Below the pieces are notes generated by a model. The model saw only the letters and a program-made list of their open reading frames with translations, ran no database searches and was not told where the DNA came from. A program made the translations under genes and the position numbers. Source: an uncultured virus (IMG/VR IMGVR_UViG_3300027798_002855) (Duplodnaviria > Heunggongvirae > Uroviricota > Caudoviricetes). Taken from it: a DNA stretch of 64,000 bases. Below, in pieces: positions 17,642 through 32,891 of the stretch. Where the stretch lies: IMG/VR virus record IMGVR_UViG_3300027798_002855; one strand, 5' to 3'. Numbering within the stretch: the stretch's first letter is position 1; each line of letters begins with the position of its first letter.

Positions 17642-18521
17642 TTTGTATCCATTCCATTAATGATACCTTTGGTATCCATCCAGTTAAATCTTTAAACTTG
17701 GCATTAGACGCAAGAGTTTCTTGCACTTCACCAATTCTTGGCGGGATAAATTTAATATCATTTGAAATCATATTAGCAATATCAAGTATAGCGTAGTTGC
17801 TTCCATACCCAATGTTATATACCTCACCAAATCCATTTTCAACTTCAGATGCAAGTATGTTTGCTTCTATTACGTCTGATATATGAGTAAAATCTCTACG
17901 CTGAGATCCATTACCAACTACTGTTAGTGGTTTTGACTCATGATATTGTTTTAAGAATAGTCCTATTACTGGGGCATACTGTCCTTTTAATGGTTGTCTA
18001 TCTCCATAAACATTAAAATATCTAAGAGATATAGTCTTTAATCCGTAAAGGTTATAATAAACTCTTGCAAGGTTTTCACCAAAAACTTTAGCAGCAGAGT
18101 ATGGAGTTAACGGATCAGGCGATTGGGTTTCTTGGTTTGGAAGCAAAGCCTTTTTACCATAAGAAGAAGATGTGCTTGAATAGATTAGCCTATCTACCTT
18201 ATTAACCCTACAAAGTTCAAGAACATTTGCTGTTCCTACTGCGTTTGATTGAATAGATTTTTTAGGATTTAATATTGCTGGCTGTATTCTTGCATCAGAT
18301 GCTACGTGAAATACGCAGTCAACATCTTTAAAAAGTGATGCAATTAAGTCATAGTCACAAATATCATACTTATAGTTTTGTGCCTTATCATTCCAATAGA
18401 ACTGCTCATGACACTCTGCAGACTCATCATCAATACAAACAACGTCGTGACCAAGACTAATTAACTTATCAACAAGGTTTGAACCAATAAAACCAGCACC
18501 ACCAGTTACTAAATATCTCAT
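17634..18521 (-). CDS. NAD-dependent nucleotide-sugar epimerase/dehydratase
   Basis: TGGAGFIGS, YxxxK, LRYFNVYG, RDFTH. Confidence 0.93.
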   Translation of the reverse strand: MRYLVTGGAGFIGSNLVDKLISLGHDVVCIDDESAECHEQFYWNDKAQNYKYDICDYDLIASLFKDVDCVFHVASDARIQPAILNPKKSIQSNAVGTANVLELCRVNKVDRLIYSSTSSSYGKKALLPNQETQSPDPLTPYSAAKVFGENLARVYYNLYGLKTISLRYFNVYGDRQPLKGQYAPVIGLFLKQYHESKPLTVVGNGSQRRDFTHISDVIEANILASEVENGFGEVYNIGYGSNYAILDIANMISNDIKFIPPRIGEVQETLASNAKFKDLTGWIPKVSLMEWIQND

Positions 18522-19477
18522 TGTATGTTTAATGTTTCTAGTATTGTTGCCCACCTGTGTACATATGTGTGCTCTTGTTTAGTTCTTTCATGCCCAGCAA
18601 GTCTTATACTCTCTCTTGAAAGACCATCTACTAGATACTTATCTATCTTGGTTTTTAGATCTTCAAGATTACCATGTTCATAAAATACAATCTCATTGCC
18701 ATCTTCAAAGTATTCTTCAAGTCCTGTAATGCGAGGGTAGATAGTAAAACCACCACGACCAGTACTTTCAAACAATCTATCACTAGTGTAGTAAGGATAG
18801 TTAAAGTTAATATTTAAACTATCACCTATTGCTATTTTGCTTCTTGCATAAATCCGATTTAAAGCATCTCCACGTACAGTTCCAGTATCTCCATCGCCAC
18901 CAACATGACAAAACCTACTGCCGTAAGTGTCTTTTAAAAAATCTATTAGTTGTGGACGGAATGGATACTCTTTGTGATATCTTTTACTTCCCACGAAAAT
19001 AACATCATGATCGTAATACTTTTTATTATAATCTGAATGAAGATAGCACTCTTTGTCATAAACTCCAGCAGGAACAAAATGACCTTTTACTTTTGTATTT
19101 TTGTTAAACCAATCAGTCATTAGCTTGTCTGTAGCAAAGAAATGTTCTATGTTTGTGTAAAAACCATCATCTTTTAAGTCTTTTTGACGCTCAATACCAA
19201 ACCAAAGATCAAGATGATAAGTCATGGTTGGTATGTTAATCATCTTCAATTCTTGTAAAACTTCAATCATGTCAAAGTGTCCAGGGGTTTTCCAGCCATG
19301 GGTGTGTACCCATATGAATAAATCTGATTCTGATGCCTGGTAAAATATCTCTTTACCTGTTGCTTGACGCTCTTGTAATTTTATTACAGTATGACCCAGA
19401 GACTCCAAAGACGCTGCGTGATGATTCTCACTAGAATATGGAACTTCAAAGTTACCAAGAAAAACAATTTTTGCCAA
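18518..19477 (-). CDS. CgeB-like glycosyltransferase
   Basis: DVIFVG, SDRLFE..G.G, HTYVHR; TTG start after GGAGG. Confidence 0.8.
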   Translation of the reverse strand: MAKIVFLGNFEVPYSSENHHAASLESLGHTVIKLQERQATGKEIFYQASESDLFIWVHTHGWKTPGHFDMIEVLQELKMINIPTMTYHLDLWFGIERQKDLKDDGFYTNIEHFFATDKLMTDWFNKNTKVKGHFVPAGVYDKECYLHSDYNKKYYDHDVIFVGSKRYHKEYPFRPQLIDFLKDTYGSRFCHVGGDGDTGTVRGDALNRIYARSKIAIGDSLNINFNYPYYTSDRLFESTGRGGFTIYPRITGLEEYFEDGNEIVFYEHGNLEDLKTKIDKYLVDGLSRESIRLAGHERTKQEHTYVHRWATILETLNIQ

Positions 19478-19531
19478 TTTTATCCTCCACTGTAAATAAT
19501 TATAGCATGATATACTTGTAATAGGGGTAAA

Positions 19532-20224
19532 ATGAATTTTATATATATATGTCGTGGCGGGGAAAACCAAGAACTTAGGTACTCTGTTAGGACAGTTGTT
19601 AATAGTTTTCCAGACTCAGAGATCTGGGTAGTCGGCGGTATACCAAATTGGTACAAAGGTAAAAGTATAAGCATAGAGCAAAATGCTAGTAAATATAATA
19701 ACGCTATAGAAAACCTAAAGGCTATCGTAAAGTCTACAGAAACCCCAGAAGAGTTTGTTTTAATGAATGATGACTTCTTCATTGTAGACAAAATAAATTC
19801 AATAAAACATTATCACGAGGGACCCCTCCTTGATAAAATTGAAAAATACAGGGATTTAAAAATGGATCCTAGTTACGTTCAAAAACTTGGACAGACCTAT
19901 GCCAGATTACAAAGAATGGGCATGGAAGAGCCTGTAAGTTATGAAACTCATACCCCAATGATTATGCTTAAAGATAGGCTTAAAGAGGTTTTACAATATT
20001 GTCCTACTAGCCTTTGGAGATCTCTGTATGGCAACATACATCATGTTGGTGGAGAACAAATAAAAGATGTAAAGGTTTACTATAGAGATAGGTTTGCAAA
20101 AATATCAAATGACTATACTAATTCTGATTTCCCTTTGATGTCTACAGACGATGAATCATTTTTAATAATAAGAGATAGTTTATTAAAAAATAAGTTTAAC
20201 AAGAAAAGTAAATACGAGAAATAA
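19532..20224 (+). CDS. Stealth-like sugar-phosphotransferase
   Basis: ELRYSVRT and LMNDDFF motifs. Confidence 0.6.
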   Translation: MNFIYICRGGENQELRYSVRTVVNSFPDSEIWVVGGIPNWYKGKSISIEQNASKYNNAIENLKAIVKSTETPEEFVLMNDDFFIVDKINSIKHYHEGPLLDKIEKYRDLKMDPSYVQKLGQTYARLQRMGMEEPVSYETHTPMIMLKDRLKEVLQYCPTSLWRSLYGNIHHVGGEQIKDVKVYYRDRFAKISNDYTNSDFPLMSTDDESFLIIRDSLLKNKFNKKSKYEK

Positions 20225-20226
20225 AA

Positions 20227-20913
20227 CTATCTCATAAAATGATAATCGCCATCTGGGCCATTGTCAGAAAACATCCCCATGTTTTTAAATCCTTGTGATG
20301 AAAGATAATCAATGATAACTTCTTTTTCAGGAGATCCAATATTATACTCTACATCTCTTAGTTCTACTATGAGGTGTTCACAAGTTTTTAATGATTCAGT
20401 TGCACCCACAAGGACATCTAGTTCTGCGCCCTGAACATCAATTTTAATAAAGTCTGGCTCTTTAAACATCTCATATTTGACGGTATCATCTAAAGTAATG
20501 GTTGTCATTTCAACTATACTGTTATCATCAAACAAATAATCTGCTGCTGAACTATATTTTGAATTTTCCTTGTAATATGAATTGCCAGCAAAGTTATCAT
20601 TGTTCTGATAAAACTTTATATTTTTGTCAGAAGCATTACTTAAGGCACCAATGCTGTATTGCAATCCGCTTTCAACATAAAGACTTTCAAATGCATCTGT
20701 TGCATCAAACAAAACTATTTCACTCTCAGGCCAGATATCTTGCGCTCTTTGTGTCCAGTGTAAAACACATGCTCCAATATCATAAATTACTTTTGGGTTG
20801 AAGTTGTAATCATATTTTAATTTAAGCAGATATTTAAAATGTTTATCTGGTAGGTTTCTATAGTCGCTAACCTTTTTAATATTATCTAAAATATTTTTAT
20901 TATATTGTTTCAT
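20227..20913 (-). CDS. FkbM-family methyltransferase, second
   Basis: DIGA, IKIDVQGAELDVL.G. Confidence 0.85.
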   Translation of the reverse strand: MKQYNKNILDNIKKVSDYRNLPDKHFKYLLKLKYDYNFNPKVIYDIGACVLHWTQRAQDIWPESEIVLFDATDAFESLYVESGLQYSIGALSNASDKNIKFYQNNDNFAGNSYYKENSKYSSAADYLFDDNSIVEMTTITLDDTVKYEMFKEPDFIKIDVQGAELDVLVGATESLKTCEHLIVELRDVEYNIGSPEKEVIIDYLSSQGFKNMGMFSDNGPDGDYHFMR

Positions 20914-21487
20914 TGTTAATATCATACTTTCCAATTTTATTTAGCCACTGTGCCATAGCCCATGCCTCACGAAACCTTATGTTTGCCATAGTCATACCAT
21001 ACTCTCTACACAACCTTTCAAAATCTTTATAGGTTTTTGGTTTTTTTGTAAAAAGAATCCACATCAAGGCCGACTCTGTTGTTAAAAATGTTTTGCCACC
21101 TTTTATATGAGAAGGTCTTTTAATTACGTTGCACCTTCTGCATCTCAAAGTCATGTTTTCTAAACTGTCTGCTTGATCCCCTAACACTTCTCTCGGAACT
21201 ATGTGATCCGCCTGCAATTCAAGTCGTGTTCCGCAGTCAGCACATTTACCATTTTGATTCTTATGCCATTCATAAACAGCCTGCATGGTTTTTCTTGGTG
21301 GATATTTACTTTGAAAAGTTTTTTTTGATGCTATAGAGGTTCCCACTTGTGATGGATTTAAGTGTCCAAGAACTAAAGCCACAACTTCTTGCATGGTAAC
21401 AAGACCCTCTGTAATTAATTCATTTAATAAATTAATCCAATCTTGTTGAGTCCATTCACGATCACTGTCTGGAAATTTATTTTGCAT
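20900..21487 (-). CDS. HNH endonuclease
   Basis: CADC..DHIVP..N...CRRCN. Confidence 0.8.
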   Translation of the reverse strand: MQNKFPDSDREWTQQDWINLLNELITEGLVTMQEVVALVLGHLNPSQVGTSIASKKTFQSKYPPRKTMQAVYEWHKNQNGKCADCGTRLELQADHIVPREVLGDQADSLENMTLRCRRCNVIKRPSHIKGGKTFLTTESALMWILFTKKPKTYKDFERLCREYGMTMANIRFREAWAMAQWLNKIGKYDINNETI

Positions 21488-21641
21488 TTTTCTTTTCTTC
21501 AACTAATTTTTTAATATTGTTTATTTTAGTATAGGCATCTCCACCAGCATCAAGAAGTATTATAACTTCATCAAACGCTTGCTTACGAGCTTTTTTACAG
21601 CCATTGCAAGGACAAGCCCAATCTTTATTGTTGCTTTCCAA
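21477..21641 (-). CDS. Small Cys-rich protein (54 aa)
   Basis: TTG start, WACPCNGCKKA. Confidence 0.5.
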   Translation of the reverse strand: MESNNKDWACPCNGCKKARKQAFDEVIILLDAGGDAYTKINNIKKLVEEKKNAK

Positions 21642-22425
21642 GGTCTTGTTTTCTTTTAACTTTACCGTCTGCTACGCCAGTCCAATACATATTGTAATAG
21701 TTTACATCAAACGAAAATGTCTTGAGATGCTGAACATGTGCACCAGTATGAGCATATAATTGAATACCAGCCTCTTTTAGTTTTCTAAAGAAAGAAACAT
21801 CTTCGCTAATAAACTTATTTGCTGCTTGTTGATTTTCTCCAAATACAGAAAACTCACCAGCAACTTCACGAACTTTAGGAACAACCGATCTGTGCATCAA
21901 AACAAAACCAAAACCAGCAACATCAACTGGTATTAACTGATTTGTTGGCATAGGATGAATCGTTCTTGTTACATATTTATTGTCTGTATTCATATAAATA
22001 GCAGGAGTTGGCTCCATCAAACTCTGTTCATTTTCTTGGCTAACAAAATAAACTCCAGTAACAACTGGCTTAGAGATTTTATCTGAAGAATCCCATAGCA
22101 ACTTAAATGCACCCATAGTCATAACTATGTCTGAGTCAATCCACATTAACCAATCTGTGTTCATATTGTCATACCAATAGTCAATTAAAGATTGACGCTG
22201 TCTTGCTATTTGATTACCCTGCACACGAATAGTGCTTGCTACCTTGATTCCACTTCTCTGTGCTTCAAGCAGGGTATTTAAAATGCCACTTGCAAACCTA
22301 CCCTCTACAGTGCCACCGTCACACCAAGCAAAGGTAACTGTTTCCTTATCGCTGTGTCCTGATATTGGTTTATCTACAACCTTTTTTGGTTGTGCCTTAC
22401 TAGGCTGCTTTTTTGCCATTGCCAT
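21625..22425 (-). CDS. GT2-like glycosyltransferase
   Basis: WIDSD, GFGFVLMH, SEDVSF, H.K. Confidence 0.8.
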   Translation of the reverse strand: MAMAKKQPSKAQPKKVVDKPISGHSDKETVTFAWCDGGTVEGRFASGILNTLLEAQRSGIKVASTIRVQGNQIARQRQSLIDYWYDNMNTDWLMWIDSDIVMTMGAFKLLWDSSDKISKPVVTGVYFVSQENEQSLMEPTPAIYMNTDNKYVTRTIHPMPTNQLIPVDVAGFGFVLMHRSVVPKVREVAGEFSVFGENQQAANKFISEDVSFFRKLKEAGIQLYAHTGAHVQHLKTFSFDVNYYNMYWTGVADGKVKRKQDLGKQQ

Positions 22426-22528
22426 GCTCCCTTATATGTCTTGCAAGGGTGCTGTGAGCAAAGATGCCCCAACGCACCTCAAGTCCTTTACCGCATTGAT
22501 TGCAGACTGCTACTCTACCCTTGTCCAT
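22400..22528 (-). CDS. C2H2 zinc-finger-like miniprotein (42 aa)
   Basis: CNQC...LARHIREH; TTGACA-17-TATAAT promoter upstream, leaderless. Confidence 0.6.
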   Translation of the reverse strand: MDKGRVAVCNQCGKGLEVRWGIFAHSTLARHIREHGNGKKAA

Positions 22529-22549
22529 GTTTCTATTATATACCAAACA

Positions 22550-22717
22550 TTATTTATTGTCAATCTTAGGTTCTAACTTGTCCCACTTGCCTGCTGCATT
22601 GCCTTGATAGGTTTGTCCAGTTTCTCTGTCTATGAGCAGCCATTTTGTTGGGGATAATGTTTGTACAACTAGAACTACTTCGCTTAAAGTTTCAGGGAAT
22701 TCAAAAGAATCTCTCAT
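22550..22717 (-). CDS. Hypothetical protein (55 aa)
   Basis: MRDSFEFPE...KWLLIDRETGQTY; ATGA-coupled. Confidence 0.55.
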   Translation of the reverse strand: MRDSFEFPETLSEVVLVVQTLSPTKWLLIDRETGQTYQGNAAGKWDKLEPKIDNK

Positions 22718-23478
22718 ATACCATTATCTTCCATATATTTTAATCTTTCCATAATAACATCAGTATTTGGATCAGCCAGGAATTGATCAAGAGCCTCTTT
22801 AACTATTGGGCGCATCTCATCAACTGCAGGGCCACCTTCATTTTCCATATTAGATATATCATAATGATAGGCATCTGAATCCTCTGTAACCCACTTGGCA
22901 GCATCTTCTACATCCCATTTGCGGGTATTGATAAGACGATGTATAACAGGTTTACCAGGCTTAGTAGTAAATGAAGGCTCTAAAACAAAAACACGATTGT
23001 TAGGCTGAATAGCAAAATTACCATCATCACGCTCTATAACATGACCACATTTATGTTGCCCAGGATTTTCTGAATACCCATCATCAAGGCTATTAGAGTC
23101 TCCTCCATACCAGTCAAGGCTAAACAAATACTTGCCAGATATCTTATTCTTACTTCTGTTCAAATAATTCATACGAAGGTTTGCAAGGTTTGAAAATCTG
23201 GTGACGGTAATGAAAGGACTAAAAGAATTCCATAGAACTAGATCATGTATGTCTATCTCTGGAACTCCTGGTTTGGTACAGAAGGCATTAATAGGCATTC
23301 TCCACCAGATACCACCATCTTCCATCATAAAATGAAACAGGGGACTTCGGTTTGGAACACTAGCAACGCCGAAAATTACACAGGGAAAGTATTGATCGTG
23401 ACTATCCTTTTGATCTCGCAAAAAGTTACCACGGATGTAGCATTCAATCGGCGGTATATTAGCATTTAATTCAGGCAT
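22714..23478 (-). CDS. Conserved phage hypothetical protein
   Basis: LNANIP, HKCGH, QPNNR. Confidence 0.75.
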   Translation of the reverse strand: MPELNANIPPIECYIRGNFLRDQKDSHDQYFPCVIFGVASVPNRSPLFHFMMEDGGIWWRMPINAFCTKPGVPEIDIHDLVLWNSFSPFITVTRFSNLANLRMNYLNRSKNKISGKYLFSLDWYGGDSNSLDDGYSENPGQHKCGHVIERDDGNFAIQPNNRVFVLEPSFTTKPGKPVIHRLINTRKWDVEDAAKWVTEDSDAYHYDISNMENEGGPAVDEMRPIVKEALDQFLADPNTDVIMERLKYMEDNGI

Positions 23479-23545: not shown

Positions 23546-24980
23546 TGGTTTAATCTTACTATCTGCGTAATCTTGACTAGCCATGTTTACCATTCTGGCT
23601 TTTCCGCAGGGACAGGCAGGAGCCTTATGTATCTTATCCTCATCTAATGTAGTAACAATAGCCATGATGGTTTGACATTCAAGGCATTTAAACATCCATC
23701 TACTTTCTACCACGAGCAACCTCCGCTGCTAATATTCTCATTCCTAAACCATTTATCTGAGACGATGTGCCAAGATCGATTGATTCAATCTCTCTGGCTA
23801 TACGCTCACGCAATTCAGACTCTACGGCCACAATACTATTCCCGATAAGGCTCTGTGTTTGAGATCCGAAGTTCTTAGATACCTCGTTGTAAAAGTGTTT
23901 GCCAATGTCTGTAGTAATATCAAAGTTCATTGTCTTCAAACTCCATGTTGTATACCGTGCCCCATTTGTCATAGATAGGCCAAAGATTATCCCAAATCCA
24001 ACAATCTCTCTTAAATCTAAATCCACTTGTTTTGCCAGTTTCTTCATAGAAGGAAATACGAAGAACAGCTTTTGATGCAAAGTGTCCTGCTAGGTTTGCC
24101 ATCCACCTTAAAGGAGGGCGGGAGTTATCAATTCTAGTAGTCTTCCACTCTGGAACATCATCATCATAACGCATATGCTATTACCCCCAATAGAAATCCT
24201 ATAATAAATGCAGAACATACAAAAGTTGAGATAAATCGTTTTTCAAGCCATCGTTTAATTACGGCTCGTTCTATCTCACGATCCACTTCATAAACCACAT
24301 CATCAACTTTGTATTCTGTCATGACTAGCCTATCTCTTTAATGAGCCTTGCTAGAATATGAGTAGCCTCGTCAATTTCGTGAAGAGAGCCTGAAAAGATC
24401 AGTTCGTGTGCCTTTGTGATTTCTGTCTTTATATATTCGTTAGTAAGTTCCATCAAACCAGTATACCCTAAAAAAGCGGGGGAGTCAAACAAAAACCACT
24501 ATCAAAGTAAGTAAAGGAACAAACCACCATATATGCTTAATCACGTATCTGCCCATATAAGGTATCTGGTTTGTCAGGAATTGTGTTAGGAGTCTCATGA
24601 TCTGAGCATACGGGGTATAGTTTATGGCCAATTGACTTGATACCCTCGGACTTTTTAGAACAGAAATAGCATATGGCCATAAAGGCTTGACCGTTTTTGC
24701 GTATCTTGTCTAAGGCTTCTACAAGTCTCTTATCTTTATACCATTGGGTATGTTGGCTAGGCATATATTCCTCCTAGGAATAAGTATATCAGGCAGGAGG
24801 GTTTTTGTCTATTTCTTCTAATATTTTCTTAGCAAGTTCTTGGGCCTGAATATCTTTGTGTTTGGTTTTGAGATATGGGGATAGAAGGTTTGCTATCAGG
24901 TCTATCATTTCTTGATTCATATCTGGATATTTATTATACATTATTAATGAGCCGTTTTTCTCATACTCAGGAGACTGCAC
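23546..24980 (-). other. Cluster of short hypothetical ORFs (incl. 23700-23930, 23920-24174, 24537-24764)
   Basis: Abutting short minus-strand ORFs, some with CxxC. Confidence 0.55.
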
Positions 24981-25066
24981 TCATTTTTCTGTGGATAGGG
25001 TAGAGGCAAATGTATCAGATCCCTACTTTGTGGTTGTGGTAGATGATGGTTTAACCCATCACCTAT
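24945..25066 (-). ncRNA. Candidate small RNA (5' hairpin, 3' pseudoknot)
   Basis: TGATATACT promoter, stem UAGGUGAUGG/CCAUCAUCUA, pseudoknot at 24948-24974. Confidence 0.4.
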
Positions 25067-25082
25067 CTAATAGTATATCAGA

Positions 25083-25781
25083 TTAGGAATAGTCTTTGCG
25101 TACCCAATGATTTTTTTTATACCAGCCAGAAAATACTGAGCTAGATTTTTTACCATTTAGTATGCCCATTTTAAGAAGACCTTTTGATTCTTTTGATATC
25201 CAAGAATCTTGTTTAAATGGTATTAATTGGGCTACTGGAGTTCCTTGTTCTATAACTCCTTCAAAACCACTTTTAATATAAAAGGGATAAGAACCATGTG
25301 GATTTGTAACATACCCACCGTCTATTATTCCAGAAAGAGTGAAAAATGGAAGATCATGTCTATTAAGTGGATGAGTTAATAAAATACTATATCCTTTTGG
25401 AACTTGAAAAGCAACATTGGTATTCCATGTATATTCTATTGGATAACAGCCTGTTGGGACTAGTGAACTATCAGATACTTCATTTCTAAATCCAGGTGGG
25501 TTGCTCATGGTGCCCCATACAACATATGGCGCTCCGTTGTTATTTTTAACATAAATATCAGATGGCAGCAATAGCATATAGCCACTTGAAAGACCATTTA
25601 AAAATGGAACACATTGTTTTACTGTTAAATTAATGTTATTTTTAGAGTCTATTATTTCTCCATTTTTCCATTTTGGTATTTTTTTATACCAATTGGGTAT
25701 TACATTTTTAGACGGAACAAGTGTGTTTGGATATTCTTCTAGTGCTGATTCATATTTTATAGTTGGTTTTTTCTTAAACAT
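25083..25781 (-). CDS. Hypothetical protein, paralog of 47098-47808 (possible dUTPase-like beta-clip fold)
   Basis: KxCxP, GYS.L..PL, GTPxxQxIP. Confidence 0.75.
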   Translation of the reverse strand: MFKKKPTIKYESALEEYPNTLVPSKNVIPNWYKKIPKWKNGEIIDSKNNINLTVKQCVPFLNGLSSGYMLLLPSDIYVKNNNGAPYVVWGTMSNPPGFRNEVSDSSLVPTGCYPIEYTWNTNVAFQVPKGYSILLTHPLNRHDLPFFTLSGIIDGGYVTNPHGSYPFYIKSGFEGVIEQGTPVAQLIPFKQDSWISKESKGLLKMGILNGKKSSSVFSGWYKKNHWVRKDYS

Positions 25782-25817
25782 GTTTTAATTGTATCAGATA
25801 TGCCTGGATTTGTAAAG

Positions 25818-25826
25818 TTATCCACA
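25818..25826 (+). promoter_or_regulatory. DnaA box
   Basis: Perfect TTATCCACA, intergenic. Confidence 0.5.
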
Positions 25827-26187
25827 AATAAATCTTACTGATAAAAAAATGTTATACCAATGGTGGAGGAAAGTGGAGGGAGGTGGGGGATGGAGCGCTT
25901 TTGCTGAGGGGATCGTAATACCAAACCAAATATCCCAAACCACGTATCCACGATATGGGGCATATGATACACCAGATATAATGGTTTGTCAAGCCCTAAA
26001 TACCGCCCCAAAAATGTGTAGAAATGTAACAAAACTATAACAAAAAGTTATAAAACCTTTTAATAACAAACCAAAATATCTAGAAAAGTTAGAAAATGTT
26101 TTGTCTCTATATATGGGGGGATTAGGAATAGGGATCGTAATCTTTTTTATACCCGCCCCTGCGGGGCCGCCGCCTGCGGCGGGGTAT

Positions 26188-26216
26188 TTGACAAGGATCG
26201 TAATCCCTAGTATACT
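26188..26216 (+). promoter_or_regulatory. Sigma70/SigA-type promoter
   Basis: TTGACA-17 bp-TATACT. Confidence 0.75.
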
Positions 26217-26220
26217 TATA

Positions 26221-26296
26221 GTATTGAATCTGGCCTTGCAGTCATTGATTCAATATTTGGGATCTGGTTACCTTTCTGGCCAGGTCCCAATTTTTA
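26221..26296 (+). ncRNA. Candidate two-hairpin small RNA with terminator
   Basis: Follows the promoter; two long stems with G-U pairs; U-tract; no credible ORF. Confidence 0.55.
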
Positions 26297-26532
26297 TGGT
26301 TTGATATAGTCTAAACTTTCAGCGGGGGCTACGGTTTGAGGGTTCTTAATGTCTTTTTCAAAAAATGGGCGGGGATTCAAAGATACACATCAAACCTAGT
26401 ATAAGAGACATAAGGTTTATATAATACAAGGTTTGGGGATATAAGGTTTGGGATCGTAATGGTTTTTTAAGGTTTGAGATGTCCAGATTGTCTGGTTTGA
26501 TATGATATTACCCGGGGGGCCTAAAAGGATCT

Positions 26533-26802
26533 TTAGGGTTTTTTATCTGCTTTGAAAAGAACCTCGTCTAAATCTTCAAACCCTGTATCCTCAACCTCAA
26601 CGGATGCTAAAAATAAATCAAATGTTTCTGCTACATACTTAGCCCCATCAGGTCTTATATCGCATAGCCCCTCATTAGCAAGATAGGCTAATGGCAAACC
26701 AATATCATTGAACTCAAAGAATTGGTCTGCTTCCTCATCATCTTGATATCTAACATAGAACTCTCCTAGTATTACTATCTTATTAGAAAAGTCTGTCGTC
26801 AT
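26533..26802 (-). CDS. Hypothetical acidic protein
   Basis: NDIGLPLAY. Confidence 0.7.
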   Translation of the reverse strand: MTTDFSNKIVILGEFYVRYQDDEEADQFFEFNDIGLPLAYLANEGLCDIRPDGAKYVAETFDLFLASVEVEDTGFEDLDEVLFKADKKP

Positions 26803-27019
26803 AGTGTCCTCCCTGTTGGTAGTATTCTCTTACTTCTTTATTATACCTTGCCGATTCTAAAATCTCAAGTGCTCTTGAATAAGGCACATAGGGAATAGCG
26901 GTTGCCAAGTAGTAGCCAACTGCCTCTAAGTCTAAAGAAAAATCAGATACGAGTGTAGAAATCTTTTGGGCAACCTTCTCCTCTTTTGTAGGTGTAGCGT
27001 TGCGTTTGATTCTATACAT
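26783..27019 (-). CDS. Hypothetical protein
   Basis: GGAGG RBS before MYRIK. Confidence 0.7.
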   Translation of the reverse strand: MYRIKRNATPTKEEKVAQKISTLVSDFSLDLEAVGYYLATAIPYVPYSRALEILESARYNKEVREYYQQGGHYDDRLF

Positions 27020-27142
27020 AGTTCCTCCCATTGTATCAAATAAGTAGGGAGAGCGCAAGCCCCACACCTGCGCTCTACCCTTATATCACGTGAGGGACCC
27101 CACCCCACGCATTCAGCCTAGGTCACCACTCCAGGCTCTCAG

Positions 27143-27496
27143 TTAAACCTTTAAACTTAAATGATAATTAATAAAACTATCAAACTCATGAATGCCAGTT
27201 TCATCTTCTACAGTCTTATTAATTAAATCAATAGTGATATCTGGATGGTCTCCACCATAGTCCATACCGTGGCCATTACTGGCCCATAGACCAAAACCTG
27301 TCTCCTCTGTCCACTGGTCCCCAATCAGCTGAGACACAATGATACGGGTTGCATAGGATGTGTCATTCCGCCTAGGTTCTGCAGCCTGTAGTGCACGGGC
27401 AAGGTTAACAAATCTATCATAGCCACCCCAATGACTGTATAAATTTACAGATAAGTCTTTATCTTGTTTGATTGTGTAGACGATTCTATCTCCCAC
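27143..27496 (-). CDS. Hypothetical phage early protein
   Basis: MGDR..LYSHWGG. Confidence 0.7.
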   Translation of the reverse strand: MGDRIVYTIKQDKDLSVNLYSHWGGYDRFVNLARALQAAEPRRNDTSYATRIIVSQLIGDQWTEETGFGLWASNGHGMDYGGDHPDITIDLINKTVEDETGIHEFDSFINYHLSLKV

Positions 27497-27822
27497 TATT
27501 CATCATCTCCTACAAATTCGATAACAACTCTAGCAACTCGTCCGTCCTCATTCATTTCAGCATAGACAGGATAGAGCCCGTCGCCATAGCCAGTTGAGAA
27601 CACTACAGCGGTAGCCATACCTAACTCGCCATAGCCTTTTGTTATGGTAGCCTCACAAGCCCCAAGATAACTATACTCTCCTACTTTTTGTTTATGTAGT
27701 TCAAAGTCCTCAGCCTCATCATTCCAAGGCTCCCACTCATCAAGATAGCAAGGGTCGCCTACCATGGCTTGCCCACTATCAACAGAAAAATGTCCAATAA
27801 GGGTCATTTCTTTAGTATCCAT
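27496..27822 (-). CDS. DUF4241-like protein
   Basis: VDSGQ..GDPCY, STGYGDG.YPV. Confidence 0.7.
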   Translation of the reverse strand: MDTKEMTLIGHFSVDSGQAMVGDPCYLDEWEPWNDEAEDFELHKQKVGEYSYLGACEATITKGYGELGMATAVVFSTGYGDGLYPVYAEMNEDGRVARVVIEFVGDDE

Positions 27823-27945
27823 TTCTTTCCTCTCCTTTGGTGTTTATGTCAATTCTATCAAAATCCAGCGGTAATGTCAATTGCTGATAAATCCCTAATA
27901 GATCCAACTGTTGTTTTGCCTTTAATACATCTAATGATTCTATTA

Positions 27946-28197
27946 TCATGTACCGTCCCTTTCTGCGATTGCAAATGACAAGTCATATGTTAGTTTATAT
28001 AGATTTGTATAAGCGTCTAGCATACCTTCACAGTATGTCCTGTTCATTGAATCCATGGCCTCACCTGAGAGCTCTTCTATATCTGCAGCAGCCTCTAATG
28101 AGCGTTCAGCCTCCAGCATAAGATTTTTAAGCTCTCCATGTATGACATCAAGGCCTGATGAGCCCAGGTCAATCTGTTTCTGTAGATTGTCGTTCAT
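27946..28197 (-). CDS. Hypothetical protein
   Basis: ORF track. Confidence 0.65.
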   Translation of the reverse strand: MNDNLQKQIDLGSSGLDVIHGELKNLMLEAERSLEAAADIEELSGEAMDSMNRTYCEGMLDAYTNLYKLTYDLSFAIAERDGT

Positions 28198-28396
28198 CTC
28201 TTTCTCTTTCCTCTCCTATTTGTATAAAGTGACGGGTAGCAATAATCTGCCCACCTAACCAGTTAAACTCAAAATCTAATTCAGCATAGTCTTTAGAATT
28301 CATATCTAATGATTCCATTTGTTCTTTTACATATTCCTGGTCTTGTTCAATACTAACAAGATGTAGCTTCATATATTCTATCAAATAAGAACTCAT
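28169..28396 (-). CDS. Hypothetical protein
   Basis: ORF track. Confidence 0.65.
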   Translation of the reverse strand: MSSYLIEYMKLHLVSIEQDQEYVKEQMESLDMNSKDYAELDFEFNWLGGQIIATRHFIQIGEERERDERQSTETD

Positions 28397-28623
28397 TAGT
28401 CTACCTCAATATAATATTGGTCATCAGGATTCATATTGTAGAATTTATTAAATGCCTGTTTAATTTCTTTAGAATCAGACAATGAAGCAAATTGATAATC
28501 TGCATACAATGTACCCTCATCTAAATTAGAATCCATCCATTCAGTAAATAGATGTTCTGATATTGCTTGTATCTCATAATCAATAACCATTTGGTTAATG
28601 TTTGCTTCCTCTAGGAAACTCAT
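28396..28623 (-). CDS. Hypothetical acidic protein
   Basis: ORF track. Confidence 0.65.
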   Translation of the reverse strand: MSFLEEANINQMVIDYEIQAISEHLFTEWMDSNLDEGTLYADYQFASLSDSKEIKQAFNKFYNMNPDDQYYIEVD

Positions 28624-29369
28624 TTGATTTGGTCCCTTCTGTATTCTGGTAGATGTGCTTCGTCTAAGTATACTTTATGGGTATCACATTCTGCAACTGC
28701 CTCTAGGTCTGCCTCGCCTAGCCAGTTACACGATTCACATATCTGACCACATTCACTCTCACAATAATCTAATGTGTTGGTTGCTTCGCAATCTCTGCAC
28801 ATATTCTCATATCCAGAATCAGAAATCATTTCACCACGCAAGAACTCACACTCACCACCCCAACCTGTCTCTTCCTCATAAGATAAGGTAAAGAGCAATG
28901 TTGGATACTGACTAGATAGTTTAGCAATAGCAGGCATTGGCGGCGACCAAGCGGTATTAAAATTATAATAAACAACTAGATTCTCTCCATTAGGAGTAGG
29001 ACCTTCCATATATGTATCAGGATGTTCATTATCAGAAGATACAGCAATTTCCCATTTAGTTCCCCAGTTGCGGACATTCCATGAATACCAGTCATTGCCT
29101 TTGAACTGCATGGCTTCTTCAATTGGTAATTTATGGTCAGGCTGCCCTGAATACTCATACTCAGTAACACCGTCTTCAATATAGTTATAGATATTATAGA
29201 ATGCAAATACAGGATTTGGATAAGTAGTTAATTTCTTTTCCATTTGTCCAGTCTCCGTGTTCCATGAATCATGGACCATTTTGAATGGTTTATTAAGTTG
29301 TGCTACAAGGTCATTAACCTCTGACGGACTACCTTCTATAGTAAGTCCACTAAATACCCAATTAGGCAT
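28620..29369 (-). CDS. DUF1281/YubB ferredoxin-like-domain protein with C-terminal Cys cluster
   Basis: MPNW, WY.W...WGTKW, F.TAWSPP. Confidence 0.8.
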   Translation of the reverse strand: MPNWVFSGLTIEGSPSEVNDLVAQLNKPFKMVHDSWNTETGQMEKKLTTYPNPVFAFYNIYNYIEDGVTEYEYSGQPDHKLPIEEAMQFKGNDWYSWNVRNWGTKWEIAVSSDNEHPDTYMEGPTPNGENLVVYYNFNTAWSPPMPAIAKLSSQYPTLLFTLSYEEETGWGGECEFLRGEMISDSGYENMCRDCEATNTLDYCESECGQICESCNWLGEADLEAVAECDTHKVYLDEAHLPEYRRDQIK

Positions 29370-29447
29370 GGGGGTCCTTTCTGTTTGTCGTAATACAATT
29401 ATCCCAAAATCAGGGAATTCTGTCAATCTGTCGTAAAGTGATTTTGG

Positions 29448-29930
29448 TCACACCTTTCCCTCTACCCTCGTGGATTGGCATTCCATGCACTTAGGATCTA
29501 TAGGATCGTAGTACTCTTTATAGCCAACATCCTCCAACTCACCTGCGGCAGTATATGTGGCCTCGTTATAGGAATTCTCCATGAATGAGAACCTAGTTAC
29601 ATTATTACAATCTAAACACTTAGGCATCTGCACCCATCTCCCATGGCTCTACTTTATAGTTTGCACATATTTGCTCAATGCAATCTTCAAGTTCGGTAAA
29701 GAATAGGCCACCTTCATTGTCGTCAAAATGACTAATCATGTTGTCAGTTATCTTGAATTCCCATACTATTTTCATTGGACATGTCCTTCTGCTAACAGAC
29801 CTTCAAAGAAGTCCCATACTATTAGTAATTGTTTATAGTTTTGTTCATCCCCTTGGTTTTTGGCAGTATCAATAGCCCAAGTCAAACTATTACCAAATGC
29901 TTGTATATCTTGATATGTATAACCTAACAT
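29448..29930 (-). CDS. Three short coupled ORFs (29772-29930, 29620-29775, 29448-29633 Zn ribbon)
   Basis: Own translation; AGAAAGG RBS and promoter upstream. Confidence 0.6.
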
Positions 29931-30079
29931 AATTACCCTTTCTGTGGTAAATATATTGTAGCAAATTTTGGGGAAAAAATCAAACTATCGTAAAGAATTT
30001 TAGGTAAAAATATCATGGATCCCGGGGGGATTTTAAAAAAATTGAGCAGTTTATACTCTTACTCAGGAGTTGAATTAGA

Positions 30080-31090
30080 TTAAACTAATTCTAAAGTATT
30101 TTTTACAATACCTAGCAGACGATTTTTTTCTGCTGTAATTGTCGCATCAAAACCAGAAGCAGCAGCAAGCAGAGATTCGTTAGAATTACCACGAGCAGAC
30201 CTGTGCCAATCAAGGCGTTCAGTTAGAGCATTGAAAGCACCCCAAGCGGTATTGGCAATCATGCCATTAAACTCGCCTGTGTAAATATCATTGATTAAAT
30301 CAATTTTATTTTCCCACTTCTTTGATGAGCCTTTAGAATCTTTATCAGGCTTAGGATAAGCAGCAAGAACAATATCATTGAACTGTTGCGCTGTGATTTC
30401 TTTTTCAATCATAGCCTTAGCCATAACATCAAAAGAATCCATATAAGCATTAGCAAGACCAAGGGCCTCACGAGCAATTTGGACTTTACCATTAGCGGTC
30501 TGTGTGTGGCGAATCTTGAAAGATTGCTTGATTTTATTCTTCTTAGAACCAAGCGCAAGATTAAGAGTGTTAGCGCATACAACACGCACTGGTGTGATAC
30601 TTGCTTGAATAGCAATAGAGCCATCATGTGATGTATTGATAAGTAAATAAGTTTTTACCTTATCTGCCACACCATTAGGGTCTAATACTGTTTCACGCTC
30701 AAGAGCAAGAGAGCCAAATACAACACGCCCTCCACGAATAGAGCCAGCGGTTTCCCATCTGCCTCCACCATCTAGGATATTATCACCAAATGAGAATAAG
30801 TCCTCATTTTGTAAAACATGATAACGCTCACCAACAACACCTAAAATATCTGTCTGAGAGTTATTTGTAGGATTTGTCCTAACAACATACTGATATTCTT
30901 TATCTGATGATAAAGTATTTGGAATCTCAACATCAACTAATCTAACATTCCAATTATTTAGATTAGCAGCAGCAAGCATTTCTGCTGTGGTTTTTTCATC
31001 TGTGAATACTGTGCCTAGACCATGCCAAGCAGGCTCACGCAATGAAGCAAAAGAAGCAACGCCATTTTGCGTTTCTAACTCATGTGCCAT
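30080..31090 (-). CDS. DUF932 (phage/plasmid-like TIGR03299) protein
   Basis: MAHEL..PAWHGLG, ETAGS..GG, NTSHDGS, TPVRVVCANT. Confidence 0.9.
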   Translation of the reverse strand: MAHELETQNGVASFASLREPAWHGLGTVFTDEKTTAEMLAAANLNNWNVRLVDVEIPNTLSSDKEYQYVVRTNPTNNSQTDILGVVGERYHVLQNEDLFSFGDNILDGGGRWETAGSIRGGRVVFGSLALERETVLDPNGVADKVKTYLLINTSHDGSIAIQASITPVRVVCANTLNLALGSKKNKIKQSFKIRHTQTANGKVQIAREALGLANAYMDSFDVMAKAMIEKEITAQQFNDIVLAAYPKPDKDSKGSSKKWENKIDLINDIYTGEFNGMIANTAWGAFNALTERLDWHRSARGNSNESLLAAASGFDATITAEKNRLLGIVKNTLELV

Positions 31091-31270
31091 TTTTATTTCC
31101 TTTCTATTTGTTTAGACAATCATATCAGGTGGGTCTGACAATGTCAATTCATACTATTAAGAATCTGGGCAAAACGGACATCGTTCTTAAACTTGACAAA
31201 AGATCTTTTTGCCCCCCGGGATTTTGGAGAGCAGTTTTAAGACATGCTCAGGTCTTGGATAGCCCCACTA

Positions 31271-31735
31271 TCACACGTTATAGATATTATCTATCTCAAC
31301 ACCTACTTCTCCGTCATATGAATTTAGTTCAGCATAAACATTTAAGTCAATGTCGCTAACCTCAAAATTAGCAACTTCATCTAACGGAACTAATATTGTT
31401 CCTGTGATTGTGGCGGTAGCCTCAAACTGAATTTCCTTAGTAGGATTAAATCCAAAGATACTACAAATATCAGCAACGATTTCCTCTGAACCCATATCAA
31501 GGTAATCAGGTAGGCGACTTTCTAACAGACCTACTCCCTGAGTATATCTATTAAGTTCTCGTCTTTCTCTGCGGTGTTGATGTAATTCCCACTCAAGGTC
31601 GCTAACCTTTACTGTGGGATACCAATTTGTATAGTCTGTTTGGTGTGCCTCAGAATCAATAATCTTATAGGTCACGATTTGATTTGGGTTGTAGTGGTTT
31701 GGCACTACTATTTCATTAGTTGTTTCTGTATTCAT
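31271..31735 (-). CDS. Hypothetical protein
   Basis: ORF track. Confidence 0.7.
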   Translation of the reverse strand: MNTETTNEIVVPNHYNPNQIVTYKIIDSEAHQTDYTNWYPTVKVSDLEWELHQHRRERRELNRYTQGVGLLESRLPDYLDMGSEEIVADICSIFGFNPTKEIQFEATATITGTILVPLDEVANFEVSDIDLNVYAELNSYDGEVGVEIDNIYNV

Positions 31736-31997
31736 TTAAGAGTTCCTCTCCTACTGTATCCATTTCTTTAATGGTATCCATCATATCGTTTAACTGTTCC
31801 TCTGTCAATAGTGCGTGGGTCACTAAGGTTGTTGTCATAGCAGAGAGCATAGCGGAATAGTTATACATCTCTTTGATAAAACTTTCATCATCTACTTCAT
31901 TTCTGATACTGACAATGTGTTTCACAATTTCCATTATCATGTCATCATGAACTGCGTCTCTTGACGCTTCTTGTAATTTAATAGCGGTTGCTATCAT
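31716..31997 (-). CDS. Hypothetical helical protein
   Basis: AGAAAGG RBS before MIATA. Confidence 0.7.
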   Translation of the reverse strand: MIATAIKLQEASRDAVHDDMIMEIVKHIVSIRNEVDDESFIKEMYNYSAMLSAMTTTLVTHALLTEEQLNDMMDTIKEMDTVGEELLNEYRNN

Positions 31998-32228
31998 GGG
32001 GCGTTCCTTTCTTTTGGTTATACCCAAGTCTATCAAAAATATAGGAAAAATACAAATCGTGTCTTAAACCAGCTATGTGATCATTATCACATTTCCCGGG
32101 GGGCGCAAAAAAAATAAGCAGTTTTAGTTCATGCTTAGGAACTGTATGCCTCGCTATAGCACTGGCAGGGACATTTGGTTGTGGCTGGGGGAATTCCGAT
32201 TACACACCCGAAACCAGCCACAATTCTA

Positions 32229-32396
32229 TTAGTGTGTTTTTACCATAGCAAATCTTGTTTGATTATTTGCCAAGCGCAACATTACTTTAGTGACATTACG
32301 AGTTTGTGGGACAAACTTTTCAATGCGACCTGTAATACCTGTTTTGCTTGTTGTAAATAAATCACCAAGTTGGTATCTGTATCCTCCAAGTGTCAT
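32229..32396 (-). CDS. Small SH3-like beta protein (55 aa, not in track)
   Basis: YQLGDLFTTSKTGITGRIEKFVP; AGAAAGG RBS. Confidence 0.7.
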   Translation of the reverse strand: MTLGGYRYQLGDLFTTSKTGITGRIEKFVPQTRNVTKVMLRLANNQTRFAMVKTH

Positions 32397-32471
32397 TTAC
32401 TTTTCCTTTCTGTTAGGGGTTTTTGTTGAGCAGTTTTAGTTGTCATACTCAGGACATTTAGCGTTTGCTAA

Positions 32472-32891
32472 TTATAGATAACGAGCGATAGCATTATAGG
32501 TGCTAGTGCTAACTACTTCCTCATCTGTCATTTTGAGAATACGAATTGCGTTCTCAATTTCATCTACCATTTCCTTGTATTGCCACTCATTGTAAGTGTC
32601 AAAATCTTTCTGAGGTTCATCAGGTAGAACTATACTTCCACTAGGTAAGTTGAAATCTACATTTATAGTGCCATTGTAGCGAACATTGGCAGATAAATCT
32701 GTTGCCTTGCTTATTTGAGCAAGTGCTAACTTTCCTACTTCTTTGTTGTATTTCTCTTGCGCCTTTGAGAACTTTTCCTCATTGACTTTTTGATTAGCCT
32801 TATCCTTTTGGATTTGGGCTAGTTTTGCTTCTAGAGCCTTTATGACTTTAGTTGTAGCGATTTTTACGCTAATTGCTTTTCCTCTTGACAT
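32472..32891 (-). CDS. Hypothetical coiled-coil protein
   Basis: ORF, own promoter and AGAAAGG RBS. Confidence 0.75.
   Translation of the reverse strand: MSRGKAISVKIATTKVIKALEAKLAQIQKDKANQKVNEEKFSKAQEKYNKEVGKLALAQISKATDLSANVRYNGTINVDFNLPSGSIVLPDEPQKDFDTYNEWQYKEMVDEIENAIRILKMTDEEVVSTSTYNAIARYL

What the first reader, a model, noticed from the sequence alone, without database searches (positions are those of the whole stretch)
24948..32456. Five copies of a compact H-type pseudoknot RNA with complete stem covariation
Minus-strand consensus: P1-CURAGYAW-P1'-(N1-4)AAAC-KGCUY(A). P1 differs in every copy yet always pairs: UCUC/GAGA (24948), ACUC/GAGU (30043), AAGAC/GUCUU (31229), AGUUC/GAACU (32115), UGUC/GACA (32427). 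The loop pairs with the 3' tail, with a compensatory change (UGAGYA/UGCUCA versus UAAGCA/UGCUUA). Three copies sit 9-15 nt after a stop codon, two precede U-tracts and one precedes the next RBS. I cannot assign it to a family I recognise. It could be a nuclease-blocking 3' cap, a processing signal, a ligand or protein-binding aptamer (preQ1-like topology, different sequence) or an antitoxin-RNA mimic.
Basis: partly seen in the sequence, partly recalled or inferred. Interest (0 to 1): 0.88.

Follow-up and report, generated by a model that had tools for sequence, protein, structure and literature searches.

The report
Phage RNA pseudoknot capping gene ends
Five copies of a tiny knotted RNA fold, shared by hundreds of unrelated phages but listed in no RNA catalogue, sit just behind genes and just ahead of RNA cutting sites, where they most likely shield the end of the upstream message.

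Summary
The minus strand carries exactly five copies (24974-24948, 30070-30043, 31256-31228, 32143-32115, 32456-32427) of a ~28-nt H-type pseudoknot. It consists of a 4-5 bp covarying hairpin, loop CUGAGYAW, linker (N)AAAC and tail UGCUYA that pairs with the loop.

No Rfam 15 family matches. The motif also occurs in named phages of Lactobacillus, Staphylococcus, Anoxybacillus, Moraxella and Cylindrospermopsis.

Both helices are supported. The hairpin pairs in 139 of 147 instances, each with a different sequence. Two pseudoknot pairs covary: G:C/A:U, and UGAACA with UGUUCA in 54 of 58.

Position is tightly constrained. The hairpin starts 4-14 nt after a stop codon in 79 of 133 cases. In 22 of 276 cases it ends 4-13 nt before a tRNA gene, and in 2 cases 7-13 nt before a hammerhead cleavage site.

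My best reading (about 0.4) is a portable 3'-end cap, or punctuation mark, that protects the upstream RNA after cutting or leaky termination. Other readings remain open: a processing signal, a pseudoknot terminator or a ribozyme. Nothing has been tested at the bench.

This scan noted the same or a like motif earlier on other DNA (e1-6025861, e1-6073490).

The parts
24948..24974 (-). Copy 1: P1 UCUC/GAGA, loop CUGAGUAU, linker AAAAC, tail GGCUCA. It lies 108 nt after the stop of ORF 25083-25781.
   Evidence: R1 32.2 bits; distance
30043..30070 (-). Copy 2: P1 ACUC/GAGU, loop CUGAGUAA, linker AUAAAC, tail UGCUCA. It lies 9 nt after the stop of the DUF932 gene (30080-31090).
   Evidence: R1 43.1 bits. 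The orthologous slot in L287 carries the compensated form UGAACA/UGUUCA.
30035..30041 (-). U7 tract starting 1 nt after copy 2
31228..31256 (-). Copy 3: P1 AAGAC/GUCUU, loop CUGAGCAU, linker AAAAC, tail UGCUCU. It lies 14 nt after the stop of ORF 31271-31735. A sigma-70-like promoter (31147-31119) lies about 80 nt downstream.
   Evidence: R1 45.9 bits
32115..32143 (-). Copy 4: P1 AGUUC/GAACU, loop CUAAGCAU, linker AAAAC, tail UGCUUA (compensated A:U variant)
   Evidence: R1 42.4 bits
32107..32114 (-). U8 tract directly after copy 4
32427..32456 (-). Copy 5: P1 UGUC/GACA, loop CUGAGUAU, linker ACUAAAAC, tail UGCUCA. It lies 15 nt after the stop of ORF 32472-32891. The RBS and ATG of ORF 32229-32396 follow.
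   Evidence: R1 39.7 bits

Best explanation
The motif is a self-contained RNA pseudoknot transcribed as part of phage messages. It acts as a portable 3'-boundary element.

It is placed as close behind a stop codon as a terminating ribosome allows. It also lies a few nucleotides ahead of the point where the transcript is cut or ends. That point can be RNase P cleavage at a tRNA 5' end, a hammerhead's self-cleavage site, an AU-rich spacer, or a U-tract.

After the cut, the upstream RNA ends in a compact coaxial stack of two short helices with only a short single-stranded overhang. This should deny 3'-to-5' exonucleases a foothold, so the upstream cistron is stabilised.

Shown here: the fold (by covariation), its breadth, and its positional rules. 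Inferred: that it is transcribed as part of the upstream message, that the cut sites are used, and that the knot blocks exonucleases.
For: (1) The fold is real.
- P1 pairs over at least 3 bp in 139 of 147 unique viral instances, each with a different sequence. By contrast, 72 of 121 mostly chance matches in bacterial genomes have no pairing at all.
- The pseudoknot pair G:C/A:U covaries. Counts are G:C 142, G:U 8, A:U 96, A:C 5. In a sample unbiased at this pair, 123 of 131 are standard pairs.
- A second pair covaries. With loop UGAACA the tail is GUU in 54 and GCU in 4 instances with P1 of at least 3 bp. The background with P1 below 3 bp is 35:22.
- Between close relatives there is an orthologous compensated change in the same slot.

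(2) The motif is anchored to the upstream gene.
- Of 133 instances with an upstream ORF, 79 start 4-14 nt after the stop. There is a sharp floor at 4 nt and a mode at 5-6 nt.
- In long intergenic gaps it lies near the upstream stop only in 29 cases, near the downstream start only in 8, and near neither in 27.
- The distance to the downstream SD is broad, 0-30 nt.
- In the window, copies 2-4 lie upstream of sigma-70-like promoters, so they cannot be leaders of the next gene's primary transcript.

(3) The motif sits next to cut sites, and the arrangement is asymmetric.
- A co-oriented tRNA gene starts 4-13 nt after the motif in 22 of 276 instances. A tRNA ends within 3 nt upstream in only 2.
- In L004 and L009 a type III hammerhead begins right after the motif. 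Its predicted cleavage site is 13 and 7 nt past the tail. Both hammerhead hits are below Rfam's gathering score (32.1 and 19.9 bits against 48.5), and the 7-nt figure for L009 rests on the 19.9-bit hit.

(4) No partner protein is needed. No protein family is shared by the neighbourhoods; the largest occurs in 10 of 118 loci. Hosts span Firmicutes, Proteobacteria, Bacteroidota (crAss-like phages), Cyanobacteria and Saccharibacteria.

(5) The genes served are varied. They include DUF932, anti-restriction, Gp2.5-like SSB, Lsr2-like, RNR and head genes.
Against: - No RNA end has been mapped. The only RNA data are assembled metatranscriptome contigs, which cannot show ends.
- Each helix alone is weak. 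Nested folding gives -4 to -6.5 kcal/mol, with z-scores of +0.2 to -2.1. Any barrier strength would have to come from the knot and tertiary contacts, which I could not compute.
- In two tRNA arrays (L332, L326) the motif follows a tRNA's encoded CCA by 1-3 nt. An exonuclease block there would hinder 3' maturation of that tRNA.
- In three Firmicute phages the single copy sits before the highly expressed scaffold and capsid genes. That position would equally suit a role for the downstream message.
- The loop and tail sequences are far more conserved than a mere roadblock needs.
Confidence: 0.4

Rival explanations
1. Processing signal. The knot is recognised by a universal host nuclease, for example RNase P reading it as an acceptor-arm-like minihelix. 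That enzyme cuts at or beside the knot, so the knot is the punctuation mark itself rather than a shield.
For: It occupies the same slots as tRNAs and hammerheads, including whole inter-tRNA spacers in L326 and L332. The loop and tail sequences and the AAAC linker are conserved across host phyla. The base after the tail is A in 101 of 147, followed by two pyrimidines with G nearly absent.
Against: A tRNA-like 3' ACCA follows the tail in only 13 of 147. If the knot were itself a cut site, placing it directly before a tRNA or a hammerhead, which already provide a cut, would be redundant. No nuclease is implicated by any data.
Confidence: 0.2
2. Pseudoknot-type intrinsic terminator or attenuator. 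Where a U-tract follows, the loop-tail helix takes the place of a terminator stem and ends transcription. This applies to a subset and is compatible with the cap reading.
For: Copies 2 and 4 are followed by U7 and U8 and then, 60-90 nt on, by promoters. The simple scan finds no canonical terminator at these gene ends. A T-run of at least 4 follows in 56 of 249 instances. In the scaffold-leader group, the motif plus U5-6 (KC5a, A403, L022, L098, L101) stands where StB12 has a -18 kcal/mol hairpin plus U7.
Against: 78% of instances have no U-tract, and its presence does not track intergenic length. The helix is only 5-6 bp. Copies inside operons directly before an RBS or a tRNA would be harmful if they terminated.
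Confidence: 0.15
3. Folding or translation insulator. The knot sequesters the spacer so that upstream coding RNA cannot mispair with the downstream tRNA, ribozyme or RBS, and so that terminating ribosomes do not run on.
For: It fills the gap between the footprint of a terminating ribosome and the next functional element. It sits directly before structured RNAs.
Against: In long gaps it stays with the upstream stop, far from the downstream element (29 against 8). In the window, promoters lie between it and the next gene.
Confidence: 0.1
4. A new minimal self-cleaving ribozyme.
For: It shares the genomic neighbourhoods of hammerheads. A RAGATH-1 hammerhead lies in L289. ardA-type genes flanked by hammerheads are described in PMC3088659 (passages read). 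The motif is a pseudoknot with invariant unpaired nucleotides: C in loop 1 and AAAC in the linker.
Against: It is very small and shows no conserved cleavage dinucleotide or further helices. It stands directly beside hammerheads and tRNAs, which already supply cuts. It matches no ribozyme model.
Confidence: 0.07
5. Ligand-sensing riboswitch (preQ1-like) or recoding signal (frameshift or readthrough).
For: The topology resembles preQ1-I and viral frameshift knots. The spacing after the stop codon (mode 5-6 nt) matches the spacers of recoding signals.
Against: The motif has many copies per genome and sits behind unrelated genes. Loops of 1 nt leave no pocket. 54 of 133 copies lie more than 14 nt from the stop. 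The loop's own UGA/UAA is in the +1 frame in 80 of 203 and in the -1 frame in 73 of 203, so a shifted ribosome would be stopped there.
Confidence: 0.03

Closest known systems
Hammerhead ribozymes flanking single genes in prophage and phage operons (Perreault et al. 2011, PMC3088659; passages read)
   Same: Both are short structured RNAs repeated between genes of varied identity, including anti-restriction ardA, and are thought to divide long phage transcripts. The motif occurs next to hammerheads.
   Different: The motif has no hammerhead core and matches no ribozyme model. It probably does not cut but sits just upstream of the cut.
RNase III-processed hairpins between phage T7 genes, and terminator or REP stem-loops that stabilise upstream mRNA (recalled, not from a call)
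   Same: They are intercistronic structures left at the 3' end of the upstream message, which then resists 3' exonucleases. In T7-like contigs the motif sits before primase/helicase.
   Different: The motif is a 28-nt pseudoknot with a conserved sequence, not a long hairpin. No RNase III-type duplex is present. It is shared across host phyla.
preQ1-I riboswitch aptamer (Rfam RF00522)
   Same: Both are small H-type pseudoknots with a short P1, an A-rich linker and a 3' tail pairing with the loop.
   Different: There is no match to the model. The motif is not in leaders of queuosine genes. It has 1-nt loops and many copies per genome.
Pistol ribozyme, 5' domain (Rfam RF02679; features recalled)
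   Same: Both have a P1 hairpin whose loop forms a pseudoknot, followed by an A-rich linker.
   Different: The pseudoknot partner follows the linker directly. There are no P2/P3 helices and no conserved cleavage site downstream, and no model match.
Compact viral frameshift/readthrough pseudoknots (luteovirus or retrovirus type; recalled)
   Same: Both have classical H-type geometry: a 1-nt loop over a 5-6 bp helix and an A-rich loop over the other helix. Both lie 5-9 nt past the decoding site.
   Different: The motif sits behind true stop codons and no extended frame follows. It also occurs in tRNA arrays.
Plastid intercistronic expression element (PMC2230500; abstract seen in the search listing only)
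   Same: Both are short intercistronic elements that yield stable monocistronic RNAs from operons.
   Different: As I recall it, the plastid element works through a bound protein that blocks exonucleases. Here no protein partner is evident.

Membership tests
preQ1-I riboswitch (RF00522) | Match to the family covariance model | tested here: not met
   No Rfam hit at gathering thresholds or at E<=10
preQ1-I riboswitch (RF00522) | Location in the 5' leader of queuosine synthesis or transport genes | tested here: not met
   The motif lies after stop codons of unrelated genes and before DNA polymerase, primase, scaffold and tRNA genes
Pistol ribozyme (RF02679) | Match to the family model; P2/P3 helices and a cleavage site 3' of the pseudoknot | tested here: not met
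   No hit. Sequence after the tail is not conserved beyond A-Y-Y
Hammerhead / other catalogued self-cleaving ribozymes | Catalytic core motifs or a model match within the motif | tested here: not met
   Hammerhead matches lie beside the motif, not in it
Self-cleaving ribozyme (any, new) | Site-specific self-cleavage in vitro | not testable with these tools
   Needs a bench assay
Intrinsic (Rho-independent) terminator | G+C-rich hairpin directly followed by a U-tract | tested here: not met
   The scan finds no terminator-like site at any copy. A U-tract follows 2 of 5 window copies and 56 of 249 instances overall. The only helix next to the tract is the 5-6 bp loop-tail helix
tRNA-like acceptor-arm pseudoknot (TYMV type) | Single-stranded 3' tail ending in N-CCA after the pseudoknot helix | tested here: not met
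   ACCA follows in 13 of 147 and ACC in 25 of 147
Programmed frameshift / readthrough pseudoknot | An extended reading frame beyond the stop or in a shifted frame | tested here: not met
   The loop's UGA/UAA is in the 0 frame in 50, the +1 frame in 80 and the -1 frame in 73 of 203. An RBS and the next gene follow
Type III antitoxin RNA (ToxI-like) | Tandem array of repeats directly upstream of an endoribonuclease toxin gene | tested here: not met
   The copies are single and 0.3-5 kb apart. No protein family is shared by the neighbourhoods. No toxin HMM search was run
3'-end stabilising structure (functional class) | RNA 3' ends map just downstream and depend on the structure | not testable with these tools
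   Only assembled RNA contigs were available

The most novel reading that the evidence does not exclude
The knot is not a passive shield but the active punctuation mark of phage transcripts. It would be either a new, smallest-known class of self-cleaving RNA or a universal minihelix that recruits RNase P. Either way it would let phages of any host cut operons into units without encoding a nuclease.
Probability: 0.12. Interest if true: 0.9.

Novelty: new variant of a known kind. Interest (0 to 1): 0.72.

Why it matters
Phage operons are usually annotated as strings of genes with empty spacers. This motif shows that a 28-nt RNA knot is reused by phages of at least five bacterial phyla at gene ends, before tRNAs and before ribozymes.

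If it protects 3' ends, three things follow:
- It is a general, host-independent way to set the stability of individual cistrons.
- It gives an annotation mark for transcript-unit boundaries in uncultured phages.
- It offers a very small part for stabilising messages in engineered operons without causing termination.

If instead it directs cleavage or terminates transcription, it would be a new class of RNA signal. Either way it deserves a catalogue entry (a covariance model) and a bench test.

Tried and rejected
- RNA evidence. Four freshwater metatranscriptome runs from 2 studies hold parts of the region, but only as assembled contigs. These gave no ends, strand or level. Two variant joints were seen: 25080/25830, which removes ORF 25083-25781, and 30067/32512, which has a 25-nt side and is weak. 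These are only hints of cassette exchange.
- Own assembly. It is not held. The nearest record, G001 (24 kb), has no copy.
- Protein-level relative. Streptomyces phage Jay2Jay has no copy at E<=1.
- E. coli genomes. There was no blastn match to one 35-nt instance.
- Possible sixth copy. A weak SAM-II hit (21 bits, 32975-32920) was examined. It is a hairpin overlapping a sigma-70-like promoter, and its tail motif recurs in only one unrelated locus (L020). I rejected it.
- tRNA-like CCA end: not general.
- Back-up in-frame stop in the loop: not supported, 50 of 203.
- Neighbour-encoded partner protein: none found.
- Link between U-tract and gap length: none.
- Tight spacing to the next SD: none.
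- Simple terminator scan of the StB12 gap: nothing found, although folding shows a strong hairpin before its U7.
- Literature. Three full-text searches and passages of five papers gave no description of this motif. The 2015 RAGATH paper (PMC4509812) is not held. Supplements of the structured-RNA surveys, including the 10,006 viral candidates of PMC10690425, were not read and might list it.
Full report
**What is there.**
Reading the minus strand at the stated places shows five copies of one element. A regular expression for loop, gap, AAAC and tail finds exactly these five and none on the plus strand.

Each copy has:
- a 4-5 bp hairpin (P1) closed by C-G;
- an 8-nt loop CUGAGYAW (CUAAGCAU in copy 4);
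- a linker ending in AAAC;
- a tail, UGCUCA or a variant, complementary to loop positions 2-7.

Exact spans are 24974-24948, 30070-30043, 31256-31228, 32143-32115 and 32456-32427. In 300 simulated windows (first-order Markov model of this window) the joint pattern never occurred.

**Not a catalogued family.**
Rfam 15 gave no match at gathering thresholds on the whole window. It also gave none at E<=10 on 9.5 kb, on 381 nt around two copies, or on four named phages that carry the motif.

**Breadth.**
The CCUAAG form gave 117 loci, the CCUGAA form 119, and a form left open at one pseudoknot pair 133. All four stopped at the limit, so totals are unknown.

In 596 Gb of bacterial genomes the same pattern gave 121 matches. 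Of these, 72 have no P1 pairing at all, as chance predicts, and 22 have P1 of at least 4 bp. The 22 come from Saccharibacteria, Bacteroidales, Calothrix and others. This works as an internal control, because in viral contigs 139 of 147 unique instances have P1 of at least 3 bp.

A 35-nt instance used as a blastn query found 41 phage records at E<=10. They include Lactobacillus KC5a, Lj771, phi jlb1 and phig1e, Staphylococcus StB12, Anoxybacillus A403, Moraxella Mcat1-5, crAss-like cr7_1, cr8_1 and cr124_1, cyanophages S-RIM4 and S-CRM01, and Cylindrospermopsis phage Cr-LKS4.

The covariance model R1 was built from 145 instances. These were a random 70 of 131 and 70 of 115 regex-selected instances with P1 of at least 3 bp, plus the five window copies. 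R1 confirmed the motif in 5 of 5 named records tested. In the window it scores the five copies at 32-46 bits, with the next hit at 8.8 bits.

**Structure.**
On the 145-row alignment the P1 pairs show many pair types:
- AU 72, UA 66, CG 6, GC 1 at the pair next to the closing C-G;
- GC 67, CG 33, AU 27, UA 18 at the next pair;
- 117 of 145 paired, with six types, at the fourth pair.

The covariation score is 0.438 against 0.161 in shuffles (0 of 500 reach it). With the partners slid by 1-3 columns only 24-42% of cells pair. The rows were chosen by the pattern and by P1 of at least 3 bp, which forces the first three pairs. The unfiltered figure is the 139 of 147 above.

The pseudoknot rests on three tests in which the tail base was left free.
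1. Loop G goes with tail C in 142 and with U in 8. Loop A goes with U in 96 and with C in 5.
2. With loop UGAACA the tail is GUU in 54 and GCU in 4 instances with P1 of at least 3 bp. Matches with P1 below 3 bp split 35:22.
3. In a scan open at both partners of one pair, 123 of 131 instances with P1 of at least 3 bp form a standard pair: G:C 98, A:U 21, G:U 3, C:G 1.

Between close relatives the same slot behind the DUF932 gene holds UGAGUA/UGCUCA in the window and UGAACA/UGUUCA in L287, with an identical P1. The AAAC linker is nearly fixed. Among 110 model hits in 405 kb, the 14 that miss the pattern include AAAA+GG and AAUC forms and one with a 24-nt hairpin inserted in the linker.

Nested folding alone gives weak energies (-4 to -6.5 kcal/mol) and usually predicts the loop-tail helix. 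Stability must therefore come from both helices together. The geometry is a 1-nt loop across a 5-6 bp helix, one unpaired base at the junction, and a 5-6 nt A-rich loop across a 4-5 bp helix. That is a classical compact H-type pseudoknot (established knowledge of such folds).

**Where it sits.**
- All copies are co-oriented with the genes.
- Of 147 instances, 133 have an ORF of at least 50 codons ending within 120 nt upstream. The gap from stop codon to P1 has a floor at 4 nt, a mode at 5-6 nt, and is 4-14 nt in 79 of the 133, with a tail beyond 100 nt.
- This floor is about where the mRNA entry channel of a ribosome paused on the stop codon ends (recalled knowledge). It reads as "as close as possible without being unwound".
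- In long gaps the motif stays near the upstream stop only in 29 cases, near the downstream start only in 8, and near neither in 27, out of 64.
- The distance to the next SD is broad.
- Of 276 unique instances, 22 have a co-oriented tRNA gene starting 4-13 nt after the motif (12 of them at 4-5 nt). Only 2 have a tRNA ending within 3 nt upstream.
- In L004 and L009 a type III hammerhead follows directly (32.1 bits, E 1e-4, and 19.9 bits, E 0.34; both below gathering). The alignment puts the cleavage site 13 and 7 nt past the tail.
- L289 has a RAGATH-1 hammerhead one gene upstream.

**Genes around it.**
Of 85 upstream ORFs found, I gave 42 to PHROGs and 14 had a family. These were DUF932-type phrog_1221 (4), Gp2.5-like SSB, a protease, HslV, Lsr2-like, an anti-restriction protein, Hsp20, RNR (2), HNH and one unknown.

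Of 54 downstream ORFs, I gave 30 and 15 had a family. These were DNA polymerase, T7-type primase/helicase (3), endolysin, nucleases, SSB (2), scaffold (2) and others.

In KC5a, StB12 and A403 the single copy lies between the protease or minor head gene and the scaffold and major capsid genes. Clustering 864 ORFs from 118 neighbourhoods gave no family present in more than 10 loci; those 10 are the window's own relatives.

**The window itself.**
The region is a run of small minus-strand genes with strong sigma-70-like promoters (11 of 12 matches at 33209, 31147, 29426, 27880, 25992 and others). The window's phage is uncultured, and its portal and DUF932 proteins are 45-53% identical to those of Streptomyces BE-cluster phages.

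Copies 2, 3 and 4 stand at the ends of such units, 60-90 nt upstream of the next promoter. Copies 2 and 4 abut U7 and U8. Copy 5 lies inside a unit, before an RBS. Copy 1 lies 108 nt behind its gene.

**How it most likely works.**
The asymmetric, close placement upstream of RNase P and hammerhead cut sites, the anchoring to the upstream stop, and the absence of any partner protein across five host phyla together fit a 3' cap best. After the cut, or after leaky termination at a U-tract, the upstream RNA ends in the knot with only a few free nucleotides. As I recall, that is too few for RNase R, PNPase or RNase II to engage. A knot also has an advantage over a G+C-rich hairpin: inside an operon it need not terminate transcription (inference). 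I put this reading at about 0.4.

Points against it:
- No ends have been mapped.
- The helices are weak individually.
- Two tRNA-array cases have the knot directly after a CCA end, where a block would hinder tRNA maturation.
- The pre-scaffold position could equally serve the downstream message.
- The sequence is more conserved than a roadblock needs.

**Rivals.**
- Recognition signal for a universal nuclease (0.2).
- Pseudoknot-type terminator for the U-tract subset (0.15). It is supported by copies 2 and 4 and by the positional equivalence with a -18 kcal/mol hairpin plus U7 in StB12.
- Folding or translation insulator (0.1).
- New ribozyme (0.07).
- Riboswitch or recoding signal (0.03).

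**Known relatives and novelty.**
The motif works most like the hammerhead punctuation of prophage operons (PMC3088659) and like RNase III-processed hairpins of T7 (recalled). It is a member of neither. It has the topology of the preQ1-I aptamer and of the pistol 5' domain but fails their model and context tests.

I found no description in three literature searches and five papers read in passages. The supplements of the large candidate-RNA surveys were not read.

Earlier notes of this scan on other genomes describe the same or a very similar knot behind stop codons and before cut sites (e1-6025861, e1-6073490). They reach the same tentative reading. They are not independent evidence.

Noticed in passing
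window 30029-30021, 31220-31212, 32103-32095 (minus strand): A CCCCCCGGG / CCCGGGGGG element lies 7-13 nt downstream of copies 2, 3 and 4, between the motif and the next promoter. Relatives carry other G+C-rich palindromes after an A/T run at the same place (CCUAGG, or CGACCCGUUCGGGCG in L005, L006, L278, L287, L312). It could be a regulator site or a small hairpin.
   Followed up: no
window 32091-32076 (minus strand): A perfect CRP-family-like palindrome, TGTGA-N6-TCACA, lies just upstream of the promoter-like site 32067-32038. Similar palindromes follow the motif in relatives L005, L092 and L075.
   Followed up: no
window 32215-32176 (minus strand): A hairpin with an 8-bp stem (GUGGCUGG...CCAGCCAC) lies between ORF 32229-32396 and copy 4. 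It is terminator-like in position but has no U-tract.
   Followed up: no
window 25080-25830: One metatranscriptome contig joins 25080 to 25830 with 4 other letters in between. This is a variant phage lacking exactly ORF 25083-25781, i.e. presence or absence of a gene cassette. A second, weak joint links 30067 (inside copy 2) to 32512 (near copy 5).
   Followed up: partly
L372 1527-1583, and L022, L098, L101, L132, L347 after the motif: In Firmicute-type phages the motif before the scaffold gene is followed by U5-6, a (G)UAUGCC-like word and a second hairpin that covaries. Together these form a conserved scaffold-gene leader of unknown role.
   Followed up: partly
L315 3032-3108: ARAGORN calls a tRNA with an 8-nt anticodon loop (anticodon given as 'ttaa'), 7 nt after a motif copy. 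It may be a stop-suppressor or a quadruplet-reading phage tRNA.
   Followed up: no
window 14287-23478: A block of glycosyltransferase, methyltransferase, nucleotide-sugar epimerase and ferredoxin-like genes (PHROGs). This points to sugar modification functions in this freshwater phage.
   Followed up: no
alignment A1, columns 7-18: The P1 pair next to the closing C-G is A-U or U-A in 138 of 145 instances and almost never G-C. This hints at a tertiary contact, for example with the AAAC linker.
   Followed up: no
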